DNA from: Paraspadella gotoi
Lineage: Eukaryota > Animalia > Chaetognatha
Direction of reading: 5' to 3'
DNA: 64,000 bases
Assembly (NCBI GenBank): GCA_051294375.1
Contig: CM119263.1
Location: 5,844,382 to 5,908,381, forward strand
Within the stretch, counting starts at the first letter, position 1, and each line of letters starts with the position of its first letter. The translations under genes were made by a program, and so were the position numbers. The notes under the pieces are model-generated. The model had not been told where the DNA came from and made no database searches. It saw only the letters and a list, made by a program, of their open reading frames with translations. Shown one piece after another: positions 20,678 through 64,000 of this stretch.

Positions 20678-20917
20678 AAATATAAAAATAAACAATGTGA
20701 AAAATATTGTTAATTCACAAGTCCTAATAAAATCGTTGTTCAAAACTAAAATCAAACTCTCTCTACATCACAAACACAACGAAAGAAAGGATTTACACAA
20801 AGAATAAACAAAGAATATAAATTCCGTGACGGAGTTCGAAGCCAAGTCAAGTTTATCGAGTTTGTTAAAGCGTCGAGTTCTCATCTTCAAACCAGAGCTT
20901 TTTGTTTTATCTTAACT

Positions 20918-21177
20918 TGTAGTCGGGCATTGCCAAGGTTCACCCCGCCTATAAGCATGACTCTTTCAGTTGTGACCCGGTGGCTCATTGAGTAAAGCCG
21001 GTACCGGGTTCAATCCCAACCCGGTGCCTACCCTGCGGGAAGAGTGAGGACGGCCGTAAGCAGCCTTGGGGGCGTGGCAAACCCTCAAGCCTGGTTCCAA
21101 GCCCAACACCCGTTCCATGTCTGTTAGAGGGGGTTATAGAAGTTATAGTAGTCCTCCTTCTGCCCCACTTAACCACA
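20918..21177 (+). mobile_element. Solo LTR, family 2 (tRNA-like head plus P1-type twister-like motif at 21052-21135), TSD AACT
   Basis: aact|TGTAGTCGGG...AACCACA|aact; A box TGGCTCATTGAG, B box GGTTCAATCC; similar to 47141-47432. Confidence 0.85.
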
Positions 21178-24103: not shown

Positions 24104-27100
24104 TTATATTTGGAAACCTTCGTTCATGTACAAATTTTCCTCATCCTTGTTATTTTTGTTATTATTTTTTTTAGGTCTTTCTTTGTCATCAACAAATTTT
24201 TCCTCTTCAATCTTAAGCGTTTCAGGTTCTCGCTCTGGAATATGTTCTTGTATATCTTCGTATAAGTTTCCTTCTCTGGAAGTTTCTTCCTCATCCCTAA
24301 TTGATAGTTCAAACCGATCTTTTTCTTCAATTCCATCCCTAATAGATTGTTCAAACCGATCTTTTTCTTCAGTTCCATCTTCTTGACCTGTTGACAAATC
24401 TTCATCCACTTTTTCCGTCTTTAATTGAACGTAATCTATGACTAAAACAACATTGTGAAAAAACCCTAAAAAGACTTCAACAATTGCCAAATATCCAACG
24501 TACATGAACGCAAAAGTGATGAAATTATAGTCATAACGGAGGTTAATGTAAGGCCCTCTTTGATCAGTTGTAGTTTCGAACTTGACATTAAAGTCTTGAG
24601 AGTAGAGTCGCTGTATAACGCCATTCCAATATGGACGCGTTGGCATAACAAAGAGTTCTTCAAAGTTATTTGCATGAAATGTGATTCGGTTTTTGGGATT
24701 TTCATCACAGCCTCGATATATATGAAGGATAATGAGAGGAAGCAAGAAGTAGAGTATGTTTAAAATAGAACCGATTATGAACCAGACAAGAAAATGAAGT
24801 TTTTTTTTGGCCCGGCTGGTCATCTGGACAGCAGTTGTCGGGGTCACAATACGAAATACAATGAAACATATTATGGTAATGATGCCTTTGTAAGATCTGA
24901 CTTTTACTATGCCCTGGTACATATCACTGAGATAAAGGGTTAGAAAGAGTGGGCCACCAACTGCCCAAATCATAAATGGGAGGCGAATGGCAAGCAAGAA
25001 CGAAAATGGCGGCCTTTTATTAACCTTAAATGTCATTGTAAAGCCAAACTTGCAGATACTTTTGAAAAACTGAATCAGGGGAAGTATCAGATGAACGAGG
25101 CATGGGGCTTGATAACAATCCGAAACGTAGCACTTTGCATTTGTATTTAGCAGCTGATGATCAAGGAGGTAAGGTGGTAAGCAACTGTCCAAGTTTGCAA
25201 TCCAGTGCTGACATTGGCATGGCGCCTTTTTTGAGCAGGTTCCGGCTCGATAGAATATGTCATCAGTATCCTCCATTGTGGAGTTTTTAACTGAGTCTTG
25301 CTTTAACAAGAAGTCTTCCTTTTCTGGAACAAAGGACGTGAGAGAAAATCTTTGGTATTGGTTGTCGTCAAGAAATTTAAAGTCAGGGCGGCTAAGAACA
25401 AAGCTTGGGGGTAAGCAGATATGATCACTTCCCAACAACTCTGAGAGAATGTGGCTTCCAAGAACAAGATTGGCCAATGTCTCCATGGAAGTAATGAATT
25501 GAAAAAATATTAAAATGTTCTTTTTTCGCTTCACTTCAAAAGTAATTTTAAAAGCGTCATTTTTATGGCTTTCAGTCATTTGCTTCTCCGCTTCTGCCAA
25601 ATCTTCTTCTAATATGGTTTCCGTTTGATTTAATAGTGCAAATATTATCGTTTTAATCATACCTTTATCTCTTAATTTTAAGAATATGTCCTCTTGTGGC
25701 CTAAATTGTTTCCAAAAAACAACTACTATACAGAAGGACACAAATTTCAAAAGCCATGTAACCCCAATAATAACAAAAGTAATTCCGGCCCACCATACAT
25801 CTTTTCGTTGATAATACCCAAATCCTATTAAAACATCAATGATTTTTAGATTTGCTATGAAATTTAAAATCCATTTGTATTTCTCAAGTAACTTCTTCGC
25901 TGAAGAGTCATTTTGACTTTCTTTTTCTTCCTTTTTTTCTTCCTCTTTTTGGACTGGCTTTTTCTTCAAAAATTTCATTTGACTGGGTTCCCATTTCAAA
26001 ATAAATACAAAAACGATGTTTGTCAAAAAAGTAATAAGAACTGACGCAAGAAGTATTACAACCTGCTTTTTATCATAACCACAGACAATTACATCCCAGA
26101 AATCTTGTATTTTCTGTCCTTGAACCAAAATTCTCTGTCTGATACCAGGGGATACCGACCATATTTTAGAAAATGAATTTGATTCATTTGATTCTAAGTT
26201 ACCATTAATAAACCATTTTGTGTTTTCTTGGGAATCATTAACTCGATACTCAACTTGTTCACTGTGATAATGGAATTGATAAAATCGTATTTGCTTTTGA
26301 TCTACAGCAAGACGAGTTCTTATATCAGCTGAGCATTTGATGAAGCTTAGGTTGTCTGTGTCACTCTTTTTATTTTTTCTGTTTGGTGCTTTTAAATATT
26401 TTTTTAAACGTTGATCATTTGTTAACACAATAGCTGTTCCATTAGTAAACACTTGTTCTATTTGATAATTTTGAGCAAATTTACCAAAATCACAAGTCAA
26501 TTTCAATTCATGCTTTTCTTCTTTGCTGTTATCAAAAATCGTGGAAGCGTCAATTCCATACTTAGTGTAATCAAAGTATTGACAATTGATTCCAAAAAAA
26601 CCTTCCAAGCATTTACAAGAGTGCTGTAATATCACTTTATTACTGACAGAAACGCACTCTCCACCGTATAAACAAGGATTTCCATCACATGGATCCAGAC
26701 TAATTGAAATATTTGCTCTTGAATATTTTTTTTGCACTAGACTATATCTTAGCTCAGTGAGCACAGTGCACACGTATTCTCCCGTATTCTTCATAGAAAT
26801 ATTAGTAAGTCTTAAAGGAAGAGTTTTTACATTGTATTTTTTTAGCACAAGACGGTTTTCAAAGGTCCATCGCATTTCAATATCCAGCGATGGATCATAA
26901 TCCACTGAGCATGGTAAACTTATTGACGCTCCAGGCGCAACAATCGTGTCTTTTGGTCTCTCAGTAAATTTCAGTTTCCTTGTTACATTTAAACTGACTG
27001 ACTGACTTACTGACTCACCGACCGAATTGTCTGCTTTGCAAGTGTACAATCCAGCATCTTCGATACCCACGTTGTGAACAATTAACACGGACTCAATTAC

Positions 27101-28383
27101 AATTATTCCACTGGCATTGATCGTTTTCACAATCCTCTGCATTCGTTTCTCCGATAATTCTGTTTCTTCTTTAAACCATCGAATCACAGGCAGAGGATCT
27201 CCAATTGCTCGACACTCGAAACGAGCCAAAGCCTCAACAACGAATCTATCTGTTACTCTTTGTGCCTCAGAAATGAAAACGATCGTTGGTTCCAATTCTA
27301 CTTTCTCCAATGGAGCCTTTAAAAGGCAAGAAGTCCAACCATCGCCCGTAAAATCAGGTTTGCAAAAGCAATCGCGACATTCAACGCAACCATCTGCCAA
27401 AGCAAGACTCTCATCTGTCGTCATAAATCGGCATTCAGCATTTTCTGCACAGGGTCTGTGCACTTGAGAAACTCGCCTCCTTGGAATAAATGGCTCCATT
27501 CTATCTTCTTCAAAAAAATTCTGACAGTTTGTTTCATTGTAAGGATAACAAGGGTGGTGACCGACGCCTCTGCCCACAAATCCAAATTCCGAGTTACAAG
27601 AGCAAAATCTAGATCCTCTGCTGTTCACACAAATTGCGCGTGGAATCGATGTGGAGCAGCCACCGTTGTTGACTTTGCATTCATCCACATCCTCGCAGCC
27701 AGAAAAACCAACTCCGTTACCTACAAATCCTTTGGGACAAGCACAAGTTCTTGATCCCAATGTATTGATGCACCTTGCCACATAATGGCAGCCACCATTT
27801 AGTGTTGCTGATGAACACTCATTAAAGTCCACACAAGACATGGATCCATTTGTGAGAGTGGAGTTGAAGCCATCCCAACATCGACATGTTTTGCTCCCAG
27901 GAATATTGGTGCAATTTGAATAAAGAGGGCATCCCCCATTTACGGTTTCCACACATTCGTTAATATCGAGACAAACTTCATGAGTCTCCTTTCCAGGTTT
28001 CTTTACAGACCTGAACCCAGATTTGCAGATGCAGACTCTTGAACCTGGGATATTGGTGCAGTTAGCCACGGCGTCGCATCTTCCGTTCTCCGCAGAATAC
28101 AAAGAGCATTCGTCAATGTCTTGGCAGCTGCCTGCACCTCCACGCACGGGCAATTGATACTGGAATCCTGGTTCGCAATTACAATGAAAAGATCCAGGGC
28201 TGTTGATGCAGGTGGAATTTCTGCCGCATGAATTGTCATTGAGGCATTCGTTGACGTCTAAGCAACCGGCGTTGCCAGTCCCGTTGCCGGTGAATCCTGA
28301 ACTGCAAGAGCAAACGACGCCGACTTCTAGAGGATAGCAAGTCGCGTTGTCGTGGCAACCACCGTTTTGAATCAGGCATGGAT
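24104..28383 (-). CDS. Terminal 4280-nt exon of a membrane protein: 7 EGF/cbEGF repeats, 2 Ig domains, 1 EGF, spacer, single TM, then an XK-related (Xkr-like) multipass region and acidic tail; 5' exons not resolved
   Basis: The frame stays open upstream of the 1349-aa track ORF to acceptor ttttccccag|AT CCA TGC (28383, phase 1). cbEGF motifs DVNEC, DIDEC, DINEC, DFNEC, DVDEC; Ig motifs FECRAIGDPLPVIRWFK...DAGLYTCKADN and LPCSVD...MRW...TGEYVC; several hydrophobic segments in the C-terminal half. Confidence 0.9.
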
Positions 28384-29202
28384 CTGGGGAAAAAAATGTT
28401 TAATAAACCGTTTATTCAAAGATTACTCCATAAATATTTTTAAAAAATCTTTACTCGTATTTAAACTTACTTTGAGTATAAACGGACAAAAAAGAAGTAT
28501 AAAAAATAATTATAAAAATCCACACACGAACAGCAAAAATAGACGTCGTTGTAAAAAAAAACATTTTCGAGAGATTTATACTTTTTTTGGTCTTTGTTCT
28601 AATTTTTTTTTTTTAAAGTCTAAGTTGATCCCAAATTTCGATTACGAATTTAAAGATTTTGACGAATTTTCTCTATCGAATGAAAACGCGAGTCTCAACC
28701 CAAACCGGTTTTTTGTTATCAAGGACGAAAGAGAAAAATACGATAGCGTGAGGAGTTATTTTAATTAATAAATTAAAACGACTAATATTAAATAATGAAT
28801 TAAGTCAATAAATATGCAATATTGCCTTCCGACTATTGGAACATTGGACAGGCTCTTGCAAGCTATTAACATATTAGCAATACCGTGTAAGCTATCTGGC
28901 AAGACTCTCACTGACTGATTTATGGTCCTTTTTAGTGAGAAAAAACAAAAATATTTAGAAAAAAAAAACCAAACAAAAAAACAAAAGCAAAGAAACGAAG
29001 AAACGAAAAAAAGAAACATTTTTGGCCCCTCAAAAAAAGAAAGACTTTTTTTTTTGAAAGAAATTGAATTCCCTGGAAACGACTTAATTACTCGCCGTCG
29101 CCGCCACCGCTCGTTGCTTAGCAACCGACGACGCACAGGCTGACGATCCGCACTAGCGGAGCAAGGGTTAAACTCGCGTAGCGTGGCGCCGATGACGTGG
29201 GG

Positions 29203-29272
<70 letters not shown>

Positions 29273-30173
29273 CATCAATGCCTTAAATTATGTTATGACT
29301 GAAATTATCAATGACCTCAGCAAATTTTTATGACGTCATTGACGTTTTTTGATGGAAGATGAAAGTGATGACGATTTCATGTCTGATTGACGACGACGAC
29401 GACGACGACGACGAAGGAAGGAAATTCCGATGCCAACATTTCCGCAAAGAAATTGTTTTGGGCTTAGAAATCTTATACGTTTAATAAGTTGTATTTTTAG
29501 TATTTGTTTTACTCATTTAAGTGGAACTTCAAGTTATGAACGATGGAAATGCAGAGCGAAAGATATACTGACAGACAGATAAACAGTCTGACAGACGGAG
29601 AGAACCCGGGTCCGTATTATTCCGCAACAACTCAGTCGTGACTAATCAGTTTTCTTCTCAAACTTGAATTTGATCGGAAATATNNNNNNNNNNNNNNNNN
29701 NNNNNNNNNNNNNNNNNNNNNNNNNNNNNNNNNNNNNNNNNNNNNNNNNNNNNNNNNNNNNNNNNNNNNNNNNNNNNNNNNNNNNNNNNNNNNNNNNNNN
29801 NNNNNNNNNNNNNNNNNNNNNNNNNNNNNNNNNNNNNNNNNNNNNNNNNNNNNNNNNNNNNNNNNNNNNNNNNNNNNNGATTAAATTTAAAACGAAAGAA
29901 AAAAAAATATTACACGAGGAAAATATATATGTTATTATAGTTAGTATGATATGATAGTAAACTTTTTTGAATATAAATCGTTGGATGAACGATCCTAACC
30001 TTAAAACAACGCCCGCCTCAAAATCAAAGTAAGATCAGGTCATCGTGATTTCAACGCCAAAAAAAAATAAACTTACCCTCAACCAAATTCGAGTTTGAAT
30101 AAAAAAAGACTAAAAAAAGAAAAAAAAAGTTAGCGGAGGAGGAAGAAANNNNNNNNNNNNNNNNNNNNNNNNN

Positions 30174-32984
30174 GAGCTTTTAAATATTTTAAACGTTGAT
30201 CATTGGCTAACACAATAGCTGTTCCATTAGTAAACACTTGTTCTTATTGATAATTTTGAGCAAATTTACCAAAATCACAAGTCAATTTCAATTCATGCTC
30301 TTCTTCTTTGCTGTTATCAAAAATCGGGAAGCGTCAATTTCATACTTAGTGTAATCAAAGTATTGACAATTGATTCCAAAAAAACCTCTCAAGCATTTAC
30401 AAGAGTGCTGTAATATCACTTTATTACTGACAGAAACGCACTCTCCACCGTATAAACAAGGATTTCCATCACATGGATCCAGACAATGGAATATTTGCTC
30501 TTGAATATTTTTTTTTGCACTAGACTATATCTTAGCTCAGTGAGACACAGTGCACACGTATTCTCCCGTATTCTTCATAGAAATATTAGTAAGTCTTTAA
30601 AGGAAGAGTTTTTACATGGTATTTTTTTAGCACAAGACGGTTTTCAAAGGTCCATCGCATTTCAATATCCAGCGATGGATCATAATCCACTGAGCATGGT
30701 AAACTTATTGACGCTCCAGGCGCAACAATCGTGTCTTTTGTCTCTCAGTAAATTTGAGTTTTCCTCGTTACATTTAAACTGACTGACTGACTTACTGACT
30801 CACCGACCGAATTCTCTGCTTTGCAATGTTACAATCCAGCATCTTCGATACCCACGTTGTGAACAATTAACACGGACTCAATTACAATTATTCCACTGGC
30901 ATTGATCGTTTTCACAATCCTCTGCATTCGTTTTCTCCGATAATTCTGTTTCTTCTTTAAACCATCGAATCACAGGAGAGGATCTCCAATTGCTCGACAC
31001 TCGAAACGAGCAAGCCTCAACAACGAATCTATCTGTTACTCTTGTGCCTCAGAAATGAAAACGATCGTTGGTTCCAATTCTACTTTCTCCAATGGAGCCT
31101 TTAAAAGGCAAGAAGTCCAACCATCGCCCGTAAAATCAGGTTTGCAAAAGCAATCGCGACATTCAGCGCAACCATCTGCCAAAGCAAGACTCTCATCTGT
31201 CGTCAAAATCGGCATTCAGCATTTTCTGCACAGGGTCTGTGCACTTGAGAAACTCGCCTCATGGAATAAATGGCTCCATTCTATCTTCTTCAAAAAAATT
31301 CTGACAGTTTGTTTCATTGTAAGGATAACAAGGGTGGTGACCGACGCTCTGCCCACAAATCCAAATTCCGAGTTACAAGAGCAAAATCTAGATCCTCTGT
31401 GTGTTCACACAATTTGCGCGTGGATAGTGGATGCAGCCCACCGTTGTTGACTTTGCATCATCCACATCCTCGCAGCCAGAAAAACCAACTCCGTTACCTA
31501 CAAATCCTTTGGGACACAGCACAAGTTCTTTGATCCCAATGTATTGATGCACCTTGCCACATAATGGCAGCCACCATTTAGTGTTGCTGATGAACACTCA
31601 TTAAAGTCCACACAAGACATGGATCCATTTGTGAGAGTGGAGTTGAAGCCATCCCAACATCGACATGTTTTGCTCCCAGGAATATTGGTGCAATTTGAAT
31701 AAAGAGGGCATCCCCCATTTACAGTTTCCACACATTCGTTAATATCGAGACAAACTTCAATGAGTCTCCTTTCCAGGTTTCTTTACAGACCTGAACCCAG
31801 ATTTGCAGATGCAGACTCTTGAACCTGGGATATTGGTGGTTAGCCACGGCGTCGCAATCTTCCGTTCTCCGCAGAATACAAAGAGCATTCGTCAATGTCT
31901 TGGCAGCTGCCTGCACCTCCACGCACGGGCAATTGATACTGGAATCCTGGTTCGCAATTACAATGAAAAGATCCAGGCTGTTGATTGCAGGTGGAATTTC
32001 TGCCGCATGAATTGTCATTGAGGCATTCGTTGACGTCTAAGCAAACCGGCGCTTGCCAGTCCGTTGCCGGTGAATCCTGAACTGCAAGAGCAAACGACGC
32101 CCGACTTCTAGAGGATAGCAGTCGCGTTGTGTGGCAACCACCGTTTTGAATCAGGCATGGATCTGGGAAAAAATGTTTAATAAACAGTTTATTCAAAGAT
32201 TACTCCCTAAATATTTTAAAAAATCTTTACTCGTATTTAAACTTACTTTGAGTATAAACGGACAAAAAAGAAGTATAAAAAATAATTATAAAAATCCACA
32301 CACGAACAGCAAAAATAGACGTCGTTGTAAAAAAAAACATTTTCGAGAGATTTATACTTTTTTTGGTCTTTGTTCTAAATTTTTTTTTTTTTAAGTCTAG
32401 TTGATCCCAAATTTCGATTACGAATTTAAAGATTTTGACGAATTTTCTCTATCGAATGAAAACGCGAGTTCTCAACCCAAACCGGTTTTTTGTTATCAAG
32501 GACGAAAGAGAAAAATACGATAGCGTGAGGAGTTATTTTAATTAATAAATTAAACGACTAATATAAATAATGAATTAAGTCAATAAATATGCAATATTGC
32601 CTTCCGACTATTGGAACATTGGACAGGCTCTTGCAAGCTATTAACATATTAGCAATACCGTGTAAGCTATCTGGCAAGACTCTCACTGACTGATTTATGG
32701 TCCTTTTTAGTGAGAAAAAACAAAAATATTTAGAAAAAAAAAACCAAACAAAAAACAAAAGCGAAGAACGAAGAAACGAAAAAAAGAAACATTTTTGGCC
32801 CCCTCAAAAAAAGAAAGACTTTTTTTTTTGAAAGAAATTGAATTCCCTGGAAACGACTTAATTACTCGCCGTCGCCGCCACCGCTCGTTGCTTAGCAACC
32901 GACGACGCACAGGCTGACGATCCGCACTAGCGGAGCAAGGGTTAAACTCGCGTAGCGTGGCGCGCGATGACGTGGGGACTCTCT

Positions 32985-33074
<90 letters not shown>

Positions 33075-33868
33075 CATCAATGCCTTAAATTATGTTATGA
33101 CTGAAATTATCAATGACATCAGCAAATTTTTTATGACGTCATTGACGTTTTTTGATGAAAGATGAAAGTGATGCGATTTCATGTCTGTATTGACGACGAC
33201 GACGACGACGACGACGAAGAAGAGGAAATTCCGATGCCAACATTTCCGCAAAGAAATTGTTTTGGGCTTAGAAATCTTATACGTTAATAAGTTGTATTTT
33301 TAGTATTTGTTTTACTCATTTAAGTGGAACTTCAAGTTATGAACGATGGAAATGCAGAGCGAAAGATATACTGACAGACAGATAAACAGTCTGACAGACG
33401 GAGAGAACCGGGTCCGTATTATTCCGCAACAAATCAGTCGTGACTAATCAGTTTTCTTCTCAAACTTGAATTTGATCGGAAATATTTTTCGCGAAAACAA
33501 AAATGGAAAAAAAAGGATAAATACTCTCCGATTTTAAGATGGAATTTGAGAATTTTTCGAGAAAACCGGAAAAAACGATGACGAATTTGATTAAATTTAA
33601 AACGAAAGAAAAAAAAATATTACACGAGGAAAATATATATGTTATTTATAGTTAGTATGATATGATAGTAAATTTTTGAATAAAATCGTTTAGGATGAAC
33701 GATCCTAACCTTAAAACAACGCCCGCCTCAAAATCAAAGTAAGATCAGGTCATCGTGATTTCAACGCCAAAAAAAAAAAAACAAACTTACCCTCAACCAA
33801 ATTCGAGTTTGAATAAAAAAAGACTAAAAAAAGAAAAAAAAAAAAGTTAGCGGAGGAGGAAGAAAATA
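30174..33868 (-). pseudogene. Indel-ridden second copy of 26388-30148 (EGF/Ig exon part plus upstream intron); probably an assembly duplicate rather than a real pseudogene
   Basis: Near-identical to 26388-30148 but with many 1-2 nt indels; starts right after a 25-N gap and supplies sequence across the 29684-29878 gap of the first copy. Confidence 0.75.
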
Positions 33869-40627: not shown

Positions 40628-51199
<10,572 letters not shown>

Positions 51200-55430: not shown

Positions 55431-58400
55431 TCATTTACAATTGTTTACGAGTGAATAAAACGCTGACGATCGATCGTTCAAAAGTTTTTCAGTTTTGTCA
55501 AATTCAACGACTTTCCCTTCATCAAGAACCAGAATTTTGTCGTAATCAAAAATGGTATTGATTCTATGAGCGATCGCTATGATAGTGCTGGTAGAAAATT
55601 CATTGCGAATGGTTTCCTGAAAAAGGAACATAATAAAAAGCTAAAAACTATTTTTTAAGTTCATTATATTTTATAAATTATTATTTTAGAAATTGATTGT
55701 AAAATATATTAGTCAATTACTTGAATTAAAGCATCGGTTTTTTCGTCAACCGAAGCCGTAGCTTCGTCCAAAACAAGAATCTTGGACCTTCTCATCAAAG
55801 CTCTTGCCAGACAAACGAGCTGTCTTTGCCCAACAGACAAATTTCCGCCAGATTCGGAACATTGAAAGTTGATTCCTTCCGGATGACGATCGACGACTGA
55901 GTTGAGGTGGGCCAACTCCAGCACGCGACGGACTTCCTCATCAGTTCTCTCATCGAAAGGGTCGACGTTGAAGCGGAGTGAACCAGAAAAAACTACAGGG
56001 TGTTGAGGAATGATTGAAATGCTTGATCGAAGACGTTCGAGGTCGATGCTCTCTATTGGTTTTCCGTCTATGATAATGCTGCCAGTTTCAGCTTCGAGTA
56101 TTCGAAATATTGCCATAGCCAGAGTTGATTTGCCAGATCCAGTGCGGCCCACCACACCAATTCTCTCTCCGTCAGATATGCGGAGATTAATTCCCTTAAG
56201 CGTGAGGTCAAGCCCATTGCGATACCGCACACTCGAATCTCGAAACTCAATATCTCCACGCGTTGGCCACGTATTTGAAATTAAACTGTTTCGCCTACTT
56301 TCTTCTTTTACTAATGGTTCATTAGAAAGATTGCAATATTCAGCGATCCGTTCCAAAGCCACAAAATGAGATTCAAAAACTGACATTTCAATCATGAGCC
56401 ATTGAATCTGACTGTTCATAAGAAAGGAATATGATAGGCTAACCCCTAACAAACCTGTGAGACAAAGAAAAAAAAATTTCCTGCTCAATAAATATGTATA
56501 GTATATAGAATTAAGATTTTATTGATTTGTTTTTTCATATCTTTTTTCACCAATTGAATGATTTAATAGTATATTTCTCTAATAGGCTGCTTACCGGGAG
56601 TTAGTGAGGGATTAAGTAATGTCAAAACGGCTGTAAAATATTGGATGATTCCACCAATACTTTGAATACAAATTATTATCCACGAGTCGCATGTCAAATC
56701 TCCAAGCCAAGCTGTTGAATTTATATCCATACATTCATAACAGCTTTGTACAAGCTGTTGTTGAGCCTGAAAGGCACGTATTGTAACCAATCCTTTTAAA
56801 GTTTCATCAAACTTAGAATACACTGGCGATTTTGTAATTGCCTCAACACGTTTAAGCTGATTTGAGGTTTTAAGAAAGACTCTTTGAATAAAAAGAAGAA
56901 CACAAGTTAAAATAAAAAAGATAATGAGCATATAGGGACTTATAATACTGATAGTAATCATGCTTGAAATGACGACGAGAGCCCCGTTGAGAACGTCTCG
57001 AGCTGTTTGTGGCAATTGGTCATCAGTGACTTCCATATCTTTCGAAAATCTATCCAAATAAAAATTTTACAATAAAAAGCAATGTTTTCTATGGCAAAAT
57101 TCCCTTTCAACACTATACACTAAATTTATTAGTTTAGTCATCTGTTCTCTGTTACTAAAACATCAAAATTCATAAAATAGTTATCACATGAAGAAATCGG
57201 AATGAACCAGAAGTAAAATTCTGCCAGACAATTTTTTTTCTTTTCCACAAAAAATAGATTCCCATTTATTTTGTTCAGAACAGAATTAAATTAATTATTT
57301 ATTAACTGATTAAATAAAATAAAAGTAATAAACTTACCTATTAATGATTCTGCCAACGGTTACAGTCTCAAAAAACTCCATTGGTGCTCGAATTACTTTC
57401 TCGGTCATTAGCATATGGATTATTCTACTTGCAGTTACACTTCCAATAAAGATAAGAAATGTGCCCATCATGATTAGGATGCCGCTAGATAATGCTAAAA
57501 CTGTATAAATGGCTATAAAATGTGAAAAACTTTTTTGGTTTGGTTCTTCAGTCCAGTTAGACAGCCAAAACGTTGAGGAAACCTCGGTAGCTATACCAAT
57601 TGCAAAAAAAAATGGGCCCCCAAAAAATAATTTCCATGAAGCATGCCTAAACCAAAAACTAAATATTTTAGAACTTACATTTCCAGATAAAACGGCTTCA
57701 TTTTCCAGAAGTTTTCCTGAAATAGCCATCATACATTTTTCTTCAAGGTCATTTTCACTTTTAAGAGGGACCTCCATATTATTTACTTTACTCTTCTCTC
57801 TCCATTTTGTCATCATTGATAAAATGCTTTGTGGGTTTTGTATTAATTCATCATATTTTCCAATTTCTTTTAGCCCTCCATCTTTTAAGCCCAAGATAAT
57901 ATCTGCCGCTTGTAAGAAGTTGGTACTATTTGTCACCATTACTCTTGTTTTATGTCTTAATGACCCATTTGGTCCTAATAAATTTGTAAAGAGGTGCTGA
58001 CCGACATGTGCGTCTACTGCACAGAGAGGATCATCTAGAATATAAGTTTCTTTATTTGCATACGCAGCTCTAGCAAGAGCAACTCGAGCTTTTTGTCCAC
58101 CAGAAATATTGACTCCATTTTCACCAATTTCCGTTGTATCACCAGCTGCAAGCATTTCTATATCAGGTAACAGTGCACAGGAACGTAACACTTCATCATA
58201 CTGAGTTTTTTTGTATTCTTTTCCAAAAAGTATATTATTGCGCAAAGTCGCATAAAATATCCACGGCTGTTGTGAAACATAGGCAATAGTTTCATGATTA
58301 ACTAACACTTCACCCTCTTGCTGTTGGATTTCTCCCAAAATCAAAGAGAGAAGTGATGACTTGCCAGACCCAACTGACCCAACTATACAAACGAGCGCAC

Positions 58401-61400
58401 CACGCGGAATTTTCAAGTTAATGCTATTGAATTTTGGAGACGGTAAATTCCGTGAAATCTTAGCATTAGAAACTTGAATAGCAAATTTGTCATCTGAAGA
58501 AGGTTTTCTCTGAAATTTAACTTCTTCTCGTTTTAAAAATTTTTCTATTCTCTTTCCAGAGATTAAAATTTGAAGACTCATTTTTATTATTTGTGGCATA
58601 AGATATAGGGGTTTTCGCATCACATTGATCAAGCTCAATGTAACAAAGGTAGTCTCAGCTGTAAGTATATTTTTTTCAGAGATAAGAACATAGATTGTAA
58701 AAGAAAATATAGCCATTAACATCGGGACAACAGCAAACATAAAGCTAACAGATGCTGAAGCAATAAGAGATTTTAACAAGTACTTAGTTTCTTTTTCTCT
58801 GATTTGTAAGATTTTTTTCTGAAATAAACACGGATCTTTTCAAGTGAAAAAAAATTCGACTTAGTGCACACCTGTACTCAAAAAAAGAGGACAGCCTAAA
58901 ACATTAAGAAACTAAATCAGTAAATTACGTAAGATTCCTTCATTTTGAGGATATTTTATGTCACTAATGTTCATGAAAAAAGGAAGTATCGTGAAAATTT
59001 GGTTAAAATTTGACCATTCGTTAGTTATTTTTTATAAGTAACTACCCAAACAGAACGTTAGATTAGTAGAAAATTAACGTATTCTTAACGTCTTGAGTTT
59101 AAGGCGCTTTTGAATAACTAGATCGATTTCTAATATACATATGGATTCCCCTTTTACTTCCATTTAACGTACATAATTTTTTATGATACATTCATGAAAC
59201 GGATTAAAATCCACCAACCATTCATCAGCGGCCATTGGTGCCAGAGGCAAGTCATTCGCCTCCCAACCCAAAAGGTCCAGGGTTCTAGCCCGGTGGTCGC
59301 CTAGCAGTTAAGAGGGACGGGACGCTTAACCCGCCTGTAACACGATGTTACAGCCTGATCCAAAGCTCAAGGATTGCTTATATTGAACAGTTCTATCACT
59401 AACACATAGCAATTATTACTGTCTCTTCATTGGTGAGCCCGACTTCCGAACACAACAGCAACAACAACACTTTCAGGCGACATGCCTCAACCTGGCGATG
59501 CACTTACCACCAACACAACAATTCACTGAAGAGATGCAACAGACTTCTCCCTACGGGTGGGGGGGATGTATGGTGGATTAAAATCCACCAACCATTCATC
59601 AGCGGCCATTGGTGCCAGAGGCAAGTCATTCGCCTCCCAACCCAAAAGATTCTCGCCCGGTGGTCGCCTGGCAGTTAAGAGTGACGGGGCGCTTAACCCG
59701 CCTGTAACACGATGTTACAGCCTGATCCGAAGCTCAGGGATTGCATATATTGAACGGTTCTATCACTAACACATAACAATTATTACTGTCTCTTCAGTGT
59801 CCTCTTTTTTGCTAAGGTCTGCAAATTCAAAAAAATATAAATATTTTTAAAAAAAAATAACAAAATAGATACTATATAGTATCAAAACACACCTGAATAG
59901 ATTTTTCCCAAGCATAAAGTTTTAAAATCTTGACGCCATGAAAAATTTCAGCTAGTAATTTTACTCGTTCGTCTTTCAAAATTATATTCTTCTTTTGAAA
60001 TCTGACTTGAAGTTTCCCAAAAAAGTAATTCAGTGGAAACATTAGTAATAAACATCCAATGGTGCAAAATGTCGCGACACCAATTTGAAGCCACATTAAG
60101 TAACAGCAAAGGATAATCTAAAAATATCCATCATTATAAGAACAACTTTTACGACTTCAAGCAAATATACATCTCTATTACCTCTATTGTTCCCCAAATA
60201 AGTGAAAAGATAAACTTGATAAATAGTAAATATCTTAAAGCATCAACACTCATCAGATTAAGGATTTGGCCAGTTTCCATATCATGGTGCATTAATACCA
60301 GTCGAAGACTCTTGTGAAAAATGGCCTAAAAGGTTACAAAATAGTACTTATTTTACATTACATTTCCAAATATTTTTTTTTCATTTGAAAAACAACCTGT
60401 ACTATAGTCGTTTTGACACGCATCCCAAGCAAATTTGCTTGCATCAGTGAATGAGAGAAGAAAATTGCTTTTCCGATTTCAAGTATTAGAAGTATGCTCG
60501 AATAAAATATTCCTTTCCATAGCCATTCTCTATGTGACATCTGGTAAAAATTAGTTATATTTTGACTAGAATAGTTAATAAGATCTAATTCTAAAGTCGC
60601 ATTGGGTTTCATCTTGATAACTTGATCTTGTGGAACAATTGATGCGTGAATTAAAAGCTTGTCCAAAATTATTGGCTGTAACACATTTGTAACTGATGGT
60701 ATTGATCTTAGAACAAAGACAAGAAGCAGCTGAGGCCAAAAACACTTCAGAAGAATCTTATTAAAACTGGTTGATGTCTTAAATGACTTGTCGGAGCTAT
60801 GAAATAGGTGTGACAGAATATCAAAAATATTAAAAATGTTAAACTGAATTAATATAATATATTATCAAAATTTAGTAATTTACATTTACGAAAAAAATAT
60901 AATCAATCAATTTACCATTACGGCAATATTGCAAAATGTGAAATTATGGAATTTTTTAATTCTTTTTTTGCAATTTTAATTTATTTTTGAAATTTTGGAT
61001 TTTTGTTTGTCGCTATGTTATTCTAACATACCTATCAGGCTCCTGAGTATCTTTTGAATTAGGCATGTGCTTATCTAATAATTTCCTGACTGAGGTGACT
61101 TTAAGAAATTTCGGAAGTTCTCCAACATCTGTAATTTGAATTTTTTTCTTTCTTGCTTTCATTATTAAAGGACCAAGAAAGAAGAAAGTCAATTTTGATA
61201 TGAGTCCAGCTTTTTCTCTTGGATTCTCACAGAAATAGGGTTGATTTTTTAAATCTGGGAAACAATACAGACAAAATCCAAGAAGGCTGAAACTGAAGAT
61301 TATATAGAAAATAATAAGTTTTGCATCTTCAATCCCGCTTCGATTTTCCTATGAAGGGGAAAAAAAATCATTTTAAAATTATACCCTGTGAGCCAAATCG

Positions 61401-63561
61401 ATTGCTTCAAAACAAAAAATAATCATATATAAGCTAATTGTCTATAGGAAAAATTATGAAACCATTTCGAAAAATAATTGACGTTTTTGAAACATTCTCA
61501 AAATTCTTTCCAAACAAGTAAAAAAAACAAGTTTGAGCAAACAATGTCGGATCTGCTACGAAATTAATTAATTAATTAATTAATCGATTAATTAATTAAT
61601 TAATTTTAATATTTAATAATTAATTATAAATTTATATACAGCTTATCATCATCGATGTCCTTAAATAAAGTAAATGTGACTTATATTTTTTCATTTAAAC
61701 TCATTTCCACTGGCACAATTCCGTCAAAACTTTATATCTAGCTTCTTCACAAACTTTCCTTCCCGCTCACAAAATTTCATCTCAATCTATTATGGGTTAA
61801 AATAAGTAAAAAGAGTCAAGTAAATGTGACTCATTTTTTTTTCATTTAAACTCATTTCCACTCAGCCAATCACGACTCGTGATTCACGAGTTATTGGGGC
61901 TTTTTGCTAAGGTGGGATGGATGGATGGATTGATTGACTGATTAATTAATTAGTTATTAATTAATTGACTAATTGATTAATTAACTGATTAATTATTTGA
62001 TTTATTAATACATCCTGCATATACATTTAATATAAAAGGAAAAAAAATCATAATCAATTAGTGAAACAGGTTTTTTGTTTTTTTCCATTTAAACTCATTT
62101 CCACTCAAACGATTCCATCGAAACTTGGTTTCCTGTTCAATCACACACTTTCCTACTCACATACAAAATTCCAGGTCAATCGCCCCATCTATCTATCTAT
62201 CAATCTACCCATCCAGCTCAATCACACACTTCCCTACCCACACACAAAATTTCATTCAAATCCATCCATCCAATCATGAGTAATTGGTGTTTTTTGCTAA
62301 GGTGGGACGGACGGACGGATGGACGGACGGACGGACATAATTTTTTTTGCATAATTTATCATAATTCGATGTTCTGACATGATATAAGTTAGTGCCTGAC
62401 AATATTGAGGGGGCGGACCGACGGACCGACAAAGTGAATTATAGAGTCGGGATCTGCTGATAAGCAGATCCGACTAAAAACTTGTCATCGCTAACAAAAT
62501 TTTCCCTCATGGAGCAAAAATATTTTTCATTTTTTTATCATTATAAAAGTAAAAGTAAAAAAAATACTGCAACAAACTCACCCCCGTGTAAAACACATGT
62601 GTCAAAAATCTGCCACTTCCGCCCCCGCCACTACCGCCACTACCAGCCTTCCATCTTATAACGTGCTGCAGCATCAGTGCGGCGATAATCGTCAGTGCAG
62701 CATAAAAGATGCAATTTGCTGCGGAGTTTTTGAGGAATCTCCGTCTTTCCTCGATTGTCAAGAAGAGAGAGAAGAGGAGACTGAAGAAGAGGAGGAGGGG
62801 AGAGAGGAATTCAATTGGAGCAAGAAGAGAAAGAGAGGAGGAGAGGCAAAGAGAGGATGAGGAGTTGCCAATGAAATGGGAGGAGGTTGTCTCGTACACA
62901 ACGGTAAGAATCAAGTCTGAAAATTAATGATAACAAATCAATTATGTATTTTTGTCCAGGCTTAGTAGGTATAGTATATATTTTAGTCAATATTGATAAA
63001 AATCTACATAGGTTAATTAAGAAAAAAAAACGTATTAAACGGAACTCCTAGATCAAATCTTAATGGCAACATTTTCCAGACTACGCCATTTCTGTTCCTG
63101 GTTTCAGACCTTAATTTTAATAATGTTAATATTTAACCTTAATAAATATATAGCCCAATCTCAAACTCAAACTTAAACCCTACCTAACTCTAATCTATTA
63201 CCCTAATTTCTTTCTGAATTTGATCTGAAATTGGACACATTTGGAAAATATGGCTCCAAATTTTACCTGCAGCGACAAAGAGCCACAAAATGATCCCAAT
63301 CATCAATTTTGCCAAAAATATATTTGAAGAATTGACGGGCGACCAAAGTGAAGCCAACGGTATTTTCTTTCTTTCGGTTTTCCACAAAGAAATCGGTGCT
63401 AACGTGATTAAACAAGCACCTGGAATTATACCGAGAAGCAGTTTTAACAGGCAGGGTGACAAATCAGGTGACGGGGTCCACCAGGCCACGTAATCGTCCC
63501 AAATAGGCGTGGCTCCGCAAAGAGACGAAGAAAAGATGGCGTTTGAAGTTGTACAATTCAT
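55431..63561 (-). CDS. ABC transporter subfamily C, long MRP type (TMD0-lasso-TMD1-NBD1-TMD2-NBD2), ABCC1/MRP1-like, ~1523 aa
   Basis: Exons 63561-63267, 62916-62582, 61348-61032, 60796-60397, 60325-60182, 60117-59893, 58818-57338, 57049-56595, 56454-55721, 55616-55431, all GT-AG, total 4572 nt. Walker [10 protein letters not shown] and GRTGSGKST; signatures ISGGQ and LSVGQ; Walker B YILDDP and [12 protein letters not shown]; H-loop IAHR; lasso [14 protein letters not shown]. Confidence 0.95.
59303..59378 (+). ncRNA. Twister-like ribozyme (P5-type) in the 5' LTR, with point changes in T1 and P4'
   Basis: Same layout as 46396-46471; P3 TGTAAC/GTTACA; loop TCCAAAGC. Confidence 0.55.
59431..59443 (+). 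promoter_or_regulatory. Primer-binding site, tRNA-Trp type
   Basis: TGGTGAGCCCGAC (TGGTGAGCCCGACGTG at 38942) versus the complement of the typical animal tRNA-Trp 3' end, TGGTGACCCCGACGTG: one mismatch. Confidence 0.8.
59555..59566 (+). promoter_or_regulatory. Polypurine tract
   Basis: GGGTGGGGGGGA abutting the TG start of the 3' LTR. Confidence 0.8.
59670..59745 (+). ncRNA. Twister-like ribozyme (P5-type) in the 3' LTR
   Basis: GA CGG...TAA CCC GCC TGTAAC-ACGAT-GTTACA G CCTGA T CCG AA GC TCAGG; one P2' substitution (GGGA to GTGA). Confidence 0.6.
61520..62480 (-). mobile_element. Non-autonomous Helentron-associated (HINE/DINE-1-like) element in ABCC intron 2
   Basis: Minus strand 5' TTTTTAGTCGGATCTGCT-TATC-AGCAGATCCCGAC palindrome, (GTCC)n microsatellite, internal repeats; 3' inverted subterminal copy (+ strand GTCGGATCTGCT at 61546-61557), hairpin GTTTG-CT-CAAAC and T-run. 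Confidence 0.75.
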
Positions 63562-64000
63562 TGTCTGAGTAAAATAAAGGGTCAAATAATGAATAATGGG
63601 AATGTTGATGTTTACAATACTATTTTTTCAAAAACCCTAAATAACAATAAAAATGAGTTATTTTGTTTAGACCATTAATTTTAAACGACTAATAATTTCA
63701 ACAATTTACGAGCAAATTGAATAAACAGGTTTCTCGGCTTTGAAAATTCTTCAGAAGTCTGAATTCAGAGATTCAAATTTTAAAGCAAAACAGGTCACTT
63801 TAATCTGAAAAGGGTCGAGTTTAAATATGTAGTATTAGATATGTTATATATATATTAAAGCGTAGCAAAAGTATTATAATCAAGGAGAATCAAAATTTGA
63901 AAAGTAGATCATGAACAGGCTTGTAAACATTTTTAAATAAAAAATTATTTTAAATTTTTCAATTTTTGCATACGCCTATATTTATACATAGTACTCACCA

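What the first reader, a model, noticed from the sequence alone, without database searches (positions are those of the whole stretch)
59201..59796. Miniature LTR retrotransposon whose LTRs carry both a tRNA-like Pol III head and a twister-like ribozyme
Seen: LTR-PBS-137 nt-PPT-LTR with no ORF. Each LTR has a tRNA-like head (acceptor stem GCGGCCA/TGGTCGC, Gly-like GCCTCCCA loop, B-box-like GGTTCTAGCCC, partly deleted in the 3' LTR). Directly after it is a motif matching the twister core: GA-CGG, TAA-CCC-GCC, P3, P4 and loop T-CCG-AA-GC. There is no TTTT in the whole 596 nt, and the first T-run lies just past the 3' LTR. Established: Cassandra (5S rRNA) and Helenus (tRNA) TRIMs carry Pol III heads in their LTRs, and plant retrozymes carry hammerheads in theirs and make circular RNAs. 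Inference: this element combines both ideas using a twister. Cleavage at 59327/59328 and 59694/59695 would release a 367-nt monomer with 5'-OH and 2',3'-cyclic phosphate ends, which RtcB could circularise, and which retains PBS and PPT for a helper LTR retrotransposon's RT. I do not know of this combination being described.
Basis: partly seen in the sequence, partly recalled or inferred. Interest (0 to 1): 0.95.

Follow-up and report, generated by a model that had tools for sequence, protein, structure and literature searches.

The report
Twister-ribozyme mini-retrotransposon in an animal
A tiny, gene-less, highly repeated jumping element of an animal carries in each terminal repeat a tRNA-like head and a conserved twister-ribozyme fold that likely cuts its RNA into a roughly 370-base unit predicted to circularise, a strategy known mainly from plants and with a different ribozyme, though cutting here is untested.

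Summary
59201-59796 is a two-LTR, non-coding element. Public contigs break sharply at 59569 and 59796, and solo LTRs carry 4-bp target duplications. The PBS matches tRNA-Trp at 12 of 13 bases, and a PPT is present. Rfam does not recognise the ribozyme. However, the window holds six copies from three diverged families. All keep the twister catalytic bases, and their stems and T1 pseudoknot covary: 11 of 22 pairs change on both sides, reached by 0 of 500 shuffles. New here: P1 is only 6 nt (16-39 nt in 13 phage P5 twisters), centred on a different palindrome in each family (GCGC, CCGG, GGCC). This suggests the two LTR ribozymes pair as a dimer. Against: both ribozymes of this copy carry private mismatches; family 1's A-box is poor; the missing TTTT is not significant; the predicted circle is not unusually stable; no cleavage or RNA data exist. 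It likely works like a plant LTR retrozyme with a Helenus-like head. Ten paper searches found no such combination; Repbase was not searchable. Earlier scan notes report dimer-type P5 twisters in Naiad elements of other genomes, not in a TRIM.

The parts
59201..59429 (+). 5' LTR of family 1, lacking its first 6 nt; ends CTCTTCA
   Evidence: family start
59228..59300 (+). tRNA-like head of the 5' LTR; long closing stem, B-box-like 59281-59291, poor A-box
   Evidence: fold z -2.83; box mismatches; no ARAGORN or Rfam tRNA call
59304..59377 (+). P5-permuted twister-type motif of the 5' LTR; predicted cut U59327^A59328; private mismatches at 59322 (P1 palindrome), 59362 (T1), 59370 (P4)
59431..59443 (+). 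primer-binding site, 12 of 13 bases as the tRNA-Trp(CCA) PBS of Gypsy-32_NVi and Helenus-2_SyJa
   Evidence: sequence against Fig. S2 of PMC10886601; the host's own tRNA not tested
59430..59568 (+). 139-nt non-coding internal region, A/C-rich
   Evidence: covered by contigs of all 4 runs laid
59555..59566 (+). polypurine tract, followed by TG and then the LTR
   Evidence: most contigs have a purine at 59558
59569..59796 (+). 3' LTR (228 nt; 7-nt deletion in the B-box region)
   Evidence: loose ends at 59569 (86/96/60/17 contigs) and 59796 (137/139/100/42) in runs X2/X1/X5/X9
59671..59744 (+). twister-type motif of the 3' LTR; predicted cut U59694^A59695; P1 6-mer 59688-59693 with palindrome GCGC; private P2 mismatch at 59682
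59328..59694 (+). predicted doubly cleaved monomer, 367 nt in this copy (about 373-374 with an undeleted LTR)
   Evidence: inferred; circular fold z -1.1 against 100 shuffles
46289..46522 (+). solo LTR of family 1 with 4-bp TSD AGAG
48754..49020 (-). solo LTR of family 2 (starts TCTGGTGG, ends CTCTTCA, TSD TCTT), with canonical A and B boxes and a twister at 48901-48827 (P1 palindrome CCGG)
20917..21170 (+). family 3 copy a: tRNA-like head plus twister 21034-21114 (P1 CGGCCG); termini not established
   Evidence: found by the descriptor without being used to write it
47141..47418 (+). family 3 copy b, more decayed; twister 47277-47361
58819..59892 (-). intron of an ABCC/MRP-like transporter gene; the element lies antisense in it, so the twister is not on the pre-mRNA strand
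   Evidence: splice sites and frames; Pfam; homologues 36-47% to animal MRP1-like proteins

Best explanation
This is a high-copy, non-coding miniature LTR retrotransposon (TRIM) whose LTRs each carry a tRNA-like head and a conserved P5-permuted twister-type fold, and it likely replicates like a plant LTR retrozyme, through a self-cut RNA predicted to circularise. Shown: precise LTR ends, 4-bp TSDs on solo copies, PBS, PPT, and a twister core with covarying stems in three families. Inferred: Pol III (or read-through) transcription runs from the head of the 5' LTR through the 3' LTR. [quoted passage not shown] A Gypsy helper's RT primes at the tRNA-Trp PBS and copies more than once round the circle, rebuilding two LTRs; its integrase inserts the cDNA. 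Also inferred: the 6-nt P1 is too short for a normal stem, but its palindrome lets the two LTR ribozymes of one transcript pair, so precursors would be cut efficiently while the one-ribozyme circle would be spared. This particular insertion is a decaying copy.
For: Ends and TSDs. The two LTRs share variants that most contigs lack (59243/59617, 59345/59712, 59374/59741, 59395/59762), as expected of one LTR-type insertion. Catalytic G, A, U^AA and L4 U...AAGC are invariant in 6 of 6 copies. 117 of 132 cells pair, 11 of 22 pairs change on both sides, 0 of 500 shuffles reach this, and slid registers pair 21-49%. One T1 pair is C-G, U-A and G-C in the three families and another is G-C/A-U; P5 differs wholly in sequence yet pairs in 6 of 6. 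P3 of family 2 resembles the Rfam twister-P1 consensus. A 3-nt P2 strand occurs in 7 of 13 phage P5 twisters. The T2 and P5 mismatches of the family-2 copy and the P2, P4 and P1 mismatches of the finding are minority letters among contigs. Family 2 is homogeneous (365 of 872 contigs 99% or more alike) with perfect A/B boxes. P1 segment is 6 nt in 6 of 6 copies against 16-39 nt in 13 of 13 phage P5 twisters; three different palindromes, about 0.007 by permutation of the letters (8/60 x 8/60 x 8/20). Natural twisters tolerate P1, P2 and P4 imperfections (PMC11662667, passages). Single-pair stems with palindromic tetraloops mark dimer-dependent hammerheads, and RtcB circularises retrozyme monomers (PMC7229834, passages).
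Against: No Rfam twister hit even at E up to 10 in four scans. The six copies are only three independent families from one genome, and the structure was drawn from them. The L4-closing pair is A-U in families 1 and 2, where PMC5408937 (passage) calls G-C essentially invariant; P2 is short and needs a bulge. P1 is dispensable in other twisters, so the dimer may not be needed. The predicted circle is not unusually stable (z -1.1, 53% paired), unlike described retrozyme RNAs. Family 1's A-box has 4 mismatches. The LTR begins TA rather than TG and this copy has no TSD. No helper element, RNA, circle or cleavage was observed. No relative was found in viral or metagenome contigs.
Confidence: 0.55

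Rival explanations
1. The twister is active but only one copy per transcript is cut. It sets one end of a linear RNA (for example the 3' end, in place of a Pol III terminator), which still has a terminal repeat and is copied by ordinary LTR strand transfer, without circles.
For: A single cut in either LTR leaves a repeated R region (follows from the coordinates). No TTTT terminator lies inside the element. The predicted circle is not unusually stable. Twisters of RTE elements process linear RNA ends (PMC8501958, part 1, section 17 and passages).
Against: The two LTR ribozymes are identical at insertion, so nothing obvious spares one; a paired P1 would favour cutting of both; plant LTR elements with the same layout make circles (PMC4918200, passages).
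Confidence: 0.2
2. The motif descends from a twister but is kept as a non-catalytic structure, with the palindrome acting as an RNA dimerisation or packaging signal for the helper's particle; the element is then an ordinary Helenus-type TRIM.
For: No Rfam hit; departures at P1, P2 and the L4-closing pair; every window copy has at least one mismatch in a stem or pseudoknot. Palindromic kissing loops in retroelement RNA dimerisation are recalled from general knowledge, not from a call.
Against: The bases needed only for chemistry (general base G, A at the cut site, L4 AAGC) are invariant across families that share about 70% or less, and both pseudoknots are kept; several mismatches are minority letters.
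Confidence: 0.17
3. The repeats are not integrase-type LTRs but tandem SINEs or pseudo-LTRs of a Penelope-like (Naiad) derivative, that is a non-LTR retrozyme with a twister.
For: This copy is 5'-truncated and has no TSD; family 3's termini are unclear; unchecked scan notes place similar P5 twisters in Naiad pseudo-LTRs; animal retrozymes are described as PLE derivatives (10.64898/2026.07.22.740005, abstract and passages).
Against: Both ends are precise in many contigs; 4-bp TSDs flank 2 of 2 solo copies of families 1 and 2; a PBS and a PPT sit exactly at the LTR borders; 27-55 nt lie upstream of the tRNA head, unlike a SINE. A PLE origin of the ribozyme module itself is not excluded.
Confidence: 0.06

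Closest known systems
Plant LTR retrozymes (Cervera et al. 2016, PMC4918200; passages read)
   Same: Non-coding, ribozyme inside each LTR, PBS, PPT, 4-bp TSD, solo LTRs, presumed Gypsy helper; a double cut leaves no R region, so circularisation is needed.
   Different: Animal host; twister instead of type III hammerhead; tRNA-like head; Trp rather than Met PBS; shorter LTR (about 235 against 300-400 nt) and centre (139 against 300-600 nt or more); circle not highly structured; circles not shown.
Helenus / TRIMp3 (Kojima 2024, PMC10886601; main text parts 1-4 of 6, supplement parts 1, 5, 6, 7, 10 of 11 and one motif search of the whole file)
   Same: TRIM under 1 kb, tRNA-like sequence in the LTR, PBS (Trp used by Helenus-2_SyJa), PPT, 4-bp TSD in animals.
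   Different: In nearly all animal consensuses I read, the tRNA part lies near the LTR 3' end, mostly before a T-rich run (Helenus-1_MLe is an exception). Here it lies 27 nt from the 5' end and is followed by a ~75-nt twister. The paper never mentions twister, and five motif strings found no twister context in its sequences. The LTR starts TA/TC rather than TG.
Type-P5 twister ribozymes (Rfam RF02684; clan CL00120)
   Same: Order GA-NNN, P1, U^AA, P2, GC, P4, L4 U-NNN-AAGC; T1 and T2 pseudoknots; 3-nt P2 strand seen in natural members.
   Different: P3 present (absent from the Rfam P5 model); P1 shrunk to 6 nt with a palindrome; bulged P2; 5-bp P4 closed by A-U in two families; no Rfam score.
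Twister T-variants of Perere-3/RTE elements (Liu et al. 2021, PMC8501958; part 1 of 9, section 17, passages)
   Same: Twister inside an animal retroelement; similar P3 sequence.
   Different: Those are P1-type, single, at the 5' end of non-LTR elements, with the TSD forming P1.
Dimer-dependent minimal hammerheads of animal non-LTR retrozymes (PMC7229834; passages)
   Same: [quoted passage not shown]
   Different: Hammerhead; tandem arrays without LTR, PBS or PPT.

Membership tests
Helenus / TRIMp3 | two LTRs, under about 1 kb, no coding capacity | tested here: met
   596 nt, 139-nt centre, no ORF of 120 aa or more over it
Helenus / TRIMp3 | PBS after the 5' LTR and PPT before the 3' LTR | tested here: met
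   12 of 13 to the published tRNA-Trp PBS; G-run 59555-59566
Helenus / TRIMp3 | 4-bp TSD (animal families) | tested here: met
   AGAG and TCTT around 2 of 2 solo LTRs of families 1 and 2; absent from the two-LTR copy, which has lost its 5' end; unclear in 2 family-3 copies
Helenus / TRIMp3 | tRNA-derived A and B boxes in the LTR | tested here: inconclusive
   family 1: A-box 4 mismatches, B-box 1; family 2: 0 and 0, against recalled box consensuses; no ARAGORN or Rfam tRNA call
Helenus / TRIMp3 | transcription by Pol III | not testable with these tools
   no run on record as RNA was listed
Twister ribozyme class | conserved core: G-A in L1, U^A-A, GC of T2, L4 U-NNN-AAGC | tested here: met
   invariant in 6 of 6 copies except T2 G in the family-2 copy, where nearly all contig depth has G
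Twister ribozyme class | P2, P4 and pseudoknots T1, T2, supported by covariation | tested here: met
   three families only; P2 short and bulged; T2 does not vary
Twister ribozyme class | P1 stem (conserved, but dispensable in published tests) | tested here: not met
   6-nt segment, at most 1-2 pairs in cis, 4-6 pairs between two copies
Twister ribozyme class | score with Rfam twister models | tested here: not met
   no hit at E up to 10, while 17 of 20 test loci from phages gave twister hits
Twister ribozyme class | site-specific self-cleavage | not testable with these tools
   needs a bench assay
LTR retrozymes | self-cleaving motif in each LTR with PBS, PPT, 4-bp TSD, no ORF | tested here: met
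   as above
LTR retrozymes | type III hammerhead | tested here: not met
   no hammerhead hit; the motif is twister-type, so it is not filed as a member, only as working alike
LTR retrozymes | abundant circular RNA | not testable with these tools
   only contigs were available; they cannot show RNA ends or circles
LTR retrozymes | highly stable monomer fold | tested here: not met
   z -1.1 against 100 shuffles, one decayed copy
Non-LTR / Penelope-derived retrozymes | no PBS, PPT or 4-bp TSD; tandem units | tested here: not met
   PBS, PPT, precise ends and 4-bp TSDs are present

The most novel reading that the evidence does not exclude
A superfamily of animal LTR retrozymes driven by a tRNA-derived Pol III promoter and processed by a natural obligate-dimer twister. 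The two LTR ribozymes complete each other's P1 through a palindrome, so only full-length two-LTR transcripts are cut and circularised, while solo-LTR transcripts and the finished circle are spared.
Probability: 0.33. Interest if true: 0.9.

Novelty: new variant of a known kind. Interest (0 to 1): 0.78.

Why it matters
If active, it would extend LTR retrozymes from plants to an animal and from hammerhead to twister, showing that the circle strategy arose again with different parts. It would give the twister class a biological role in LTR retrotransposition and a natural example of two twisters flanking a circle. It would add a twister variant (P5-permuted, with P3 and a palindromic mini-P1) that Rfam misses, and so may be overlooked in many genomes. 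Each step is testable with short RNAs, and young family 2 offers intact natural copies.

Tried and rejected
No whole genome or relatives were held, so no genome-wide copy set, TSD census or helper search was possible.

Rfam scans of four stretches gave only chance snoRNA/miRNA-type hits; ARAGORN found 0 genes.

Expression: no RNA holder was listed among 9 runs; X9 is only guessed to be RNA, so it is used neither way. 4 of the 9 runs were laid. Their variant tables are cut (38 rows not shown), so position 59362 and the PBS mismatch could not be read, and summed depth is not a copy number.

Relatives elsewhere: metagenome scans gave 0 and 4 loci, viral scans 3 and 6. None of those printed has P4 or T1 by eye, and model hits among the 6 covered mainly the search motif.

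Model R1 found no seventh copy in the window. It matched phage twisters at 12-22 bits (64 loci searched, 59 of them from the 113), but these were selected on P4/L4 and are often misaligned, so I do not count this as evidence.

The absence of TTTT was rejected as evidence. Minimum-energy folds of the motif alone are unremarkable (z -1.3 and -1.5), as expected for a pseudoknotted RNA.

A known SINE core domain was considered: five motif strings found nothing in 2 of 3 MetaSINE supplement files (PMC4824008; file 1 not searched, text not read).

The host could not be placed beyond 'animal'.

Full report
Observation. The stretch holds two direct repeats, 59201-59429 and 59575-59796, with 10 substitutions in 222 aligned bases and a 7-nt gap in the second. 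No genome was held, so I laid contigs of 4 of the 9 public runs that hold the stretch. 13988, 10937, 2345 and 938 contigs were laid; depth over the element is three to four orders above the flanks, which the tool says is no copy number but marks a very abundant repeat. Loose ends pile at 59569 and 59796 in all four runs. A third copy at 46289-46522 has those same ends between AGAG and AGAG. The LTR is thus about 234 nt, starts TATGG and ends CTCTTCA; the centre is 139 nt. The finding's 5' LTR has lost 6 nt and shows no TSD. The two LTRs share four variants that most contigs lack, as expected of one insertion with initially identical LTRs. The PBS matches at 12 of 13 bases the tRNA-Trp PBS shown for Gypsy-32_NVi and Helenus-2_SyJa. 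The element lies antisense in an intron (58819-59892) of an ABCC/MRP-like gene of an animal.

Sister families. BLAST found a 70%-identical stretch on the minus strand. Contigs show it is a second LTR family: 48754-49020, same terminal motifs, TSD TCTT, a G-run plus TG among the loose ends upstream, and high homogeneity (365 of 872 contigs in X2 99% or more alike). A generic P5-twister descriptor, written from the twister layout, found families 1 and 2 and a third family that I had not seen (21044-21106; second copy at 47277-47361). Family 3 also has a tRNA-like head, but its termini are not established. A model built from the six copies found no seventh in the window.

Is it a twister? Rfam says nothing, even at E up to 10, while it gave twister hits in 17 of 20 test loci. 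Its P5 model has no P3 and a long P1, which this motif breaks on both counts. Direct tests favour a twister. The descriptor hit 0 of 3000 shuffles of each of two LTRs and 0 or 0.15 times per shuffled window over 200 shuffles, against 2 or 4 real hits; it misses 2 of the 6 copies. The catalytic G, the next A, U^AA and L4 U...AAGC are invariant in 6 of 6 copies. With the named structure, 117 of 132 cells pair and 11 of 22 pairs change on both sides; 0 of 500 shuffles reach either value, although 43 of 500 reach the number of pair types; slid registers pair 21-49%. These controls are lenient, since the structure came from these sequences and there are only three independent families. The individual changes are telling, however: one T1 pair is C-G, U-A and G-C in the three families, another G-C, G-C and A-U; P3 and P4 each have swapped pairs; P5 has unrelated sequences that pair in every copy. 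Mismatches at 59322, 59370, 59682, 48873 and 48900 are minority letters, so they are private decay; 59362 could not be read there, but the 3' LTR and the solo LTR keep the pair. Departures from the class remain: a 3-nt bulged P2 (a 3-nt strand occurs in 7 of 13 phage P5 twisters), an A-U pair closing L4 in two families where a review calls G-C essentially invariant (PMC5408937, passage), and P1. A high-throughput test of natural twisters found P1, P2 and P4 imperfections tolerated and the pseudoknots sensitive (PMC11662667, abstract, passages, section 33). The T1 mismatch therefore probably weakens the finding's 5' ribozyme.

The short P1. Between T1 and the cut site there are 6 nt in all six copies, against 16-39 nt in 13 of 13 distinct phage P5 twisters. 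The middle four bases are GCGC, CCGG and GGCC in the three families (palindromic in 4 of 6 copies; the other two are mutated). Self-duplex energies are -8.3, -8.1 and -10.7 kcal/mol, in the top 1.3% of all hexamers and the top 5-11% of those with the same GC count; letter permutations give 8/60, 8/60 and 8/20. The central pair changes from C-G to G-C, which a hairpin does not need but a duplex between two copies does. The same design, a one-pair stem with a palindromic tetraloop, marks axolotl hammerheads that cut much better as dimers (PMC7229834, passages). I noted this idea before seeing unchecked scan notes that report it for twisters in Naiad elements. Since P1 is dispensable in other twisters, a monomer may cut too, so the dimer is an inference from three families.

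The head. It folds into a long stem with two arms (z -2.83) but is called by neither ARAGORN nor Rfam. Against recalled box consensuses, family 1 has a poor A-box (4 mismatches) and a near B-box (1), and family 2 has both perfect. The lack of TTTT holds in all LTR types but is common in shuffles (513 of 2000). Pol III transcription is plausible, best for family 2, and not shown.

Mechanism. Cuts at 59327/8 and 59694/5 would free a 367-nt unit (about 373-374 in undeleted copies) holding one permuted LTR, the PBS and the PPT but no terminal repeat. As argued for plant retrozymes (PMC4918200, passages), such an RNA must be circularised to be copied into two LTRs; RtcB does this for retrozyme monomers in vitro (PMC7229834, passages). 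A dimer-dependent ribozyme would suit this, since precursors carry two and the circle one. I give this 0.55. A single cut would leave a normal R region and needs no circle (0.2). A non-catalytic dimerisation or packaging role (0.17) does not explain the invariant catalytic bases. A SINE or Penelope-type reading (0.06) does not explain the ends, TSDs, PBS and PPT. The predicted circle is not unusually stable (z -1.1), and no RNA evidence was available.

Comparison and novelty. It meets most of the Helenus definition (PMC10886601: main text parts 1-4 of 6; supplement parts 1, 5, 6, 7, 10 of 11, and a five-motif search of the whole file), with the tRNA-box test inconclusive for family 1. It differs in layout, and I saw no twister in the consensuses read; parts 2-4, 8, 9 and 11 were covered only by the motif search. 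It works like an LTR retrozyme but fails the hammerhead test, so it is not filed there. A 2026 preprint (10.64898/2026.07.22.740005, abstract and passages) still places LTR retrozymes mainly in plants. Retroelement twisters that I found in print are at 5' ends of RTE elements (PMC8501958: part 1, section 17, passages; PMC7761336: passages; PMC6765202, passages, added none). Naiads are described as lacking canonical hammerheads (PMC8557442, passages). Ten searches of open-access text found no TRIM or LTR element with a twister; subscription papers, Repbase, Dfam and the preprint's supplements were not seen. Seven look-ups of earlier scan notes found no such combination. Verdict: a real element and a well-supported twister variant; a new combination of known parts with an untested mechanism. 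Interest 0.78.

Noticed in passing
PMC10886601 Data S1, Ajax-1_NGe and Ajax-1_LiLo: Both Ajax LTRs contain ACGG shortly before TTAACCCGCC and a hairpin, and their internal ends contain TCCGAAG: fragments of the family-1 twister core, but without the catalytic GA or T2. Chance or a decayed relic.
   Followed up: partly
window 59303, 59322, 59362, 59370, 59389: 5 of the 6 changes private to the 5' LTR (against both the 3' LTR and the solo LTR) are G to A, only two at CpG; possibly deaminase-type editing.
   Followed up: no
window 59473-59515: Contigs in all 4 runs show a joint going back 43 bases with about 5 extra letters: other copies carry a ~48-nt tandem duplication in the internal region.
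   Followed up: no
window 48690-49065: The family-2 LTR sits inside a lower-copy repeat, and contigs skipping it (48747 to 49022) look like empty sites; a joint from 49008 back to 48756 hints at two-LTR forms.
   Followed up: partly
window 59566-59595: A 14-bp inverted repeat spans the PPT/LTR border and the first 27 nt of the LTR; role unknown.
   Followed up: no
window 24104-28399 (-): Single 1431-aa reading frame with EGF and Ig domains and a hydrophobic C-terminal half; 26388-29683 is repeated at 30176-33485 (96%) across an N gap, perhaps a duplication or an uncollapsed haplotype.
   Followed up: partly
window 55709-63627 (-): ABCC/MRP1-like transporter gene with unusually long exons, only 36-47% identical to named animal proteins.
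   Followed up: partly
window 40971-45525, 41905-42915, 44722-45041 and 61567-62481: Other dispersed and tandem repeats of 100-350 nt; no twister motif by descriptor or model.
   Followed up: no
L009, L013, L021, L024, L026, L027, L032, L036, L067, L074, L089, L110: Phage contigs with P5-type twisters, some with two per locus; used only as comparators.
   Followed up: partly
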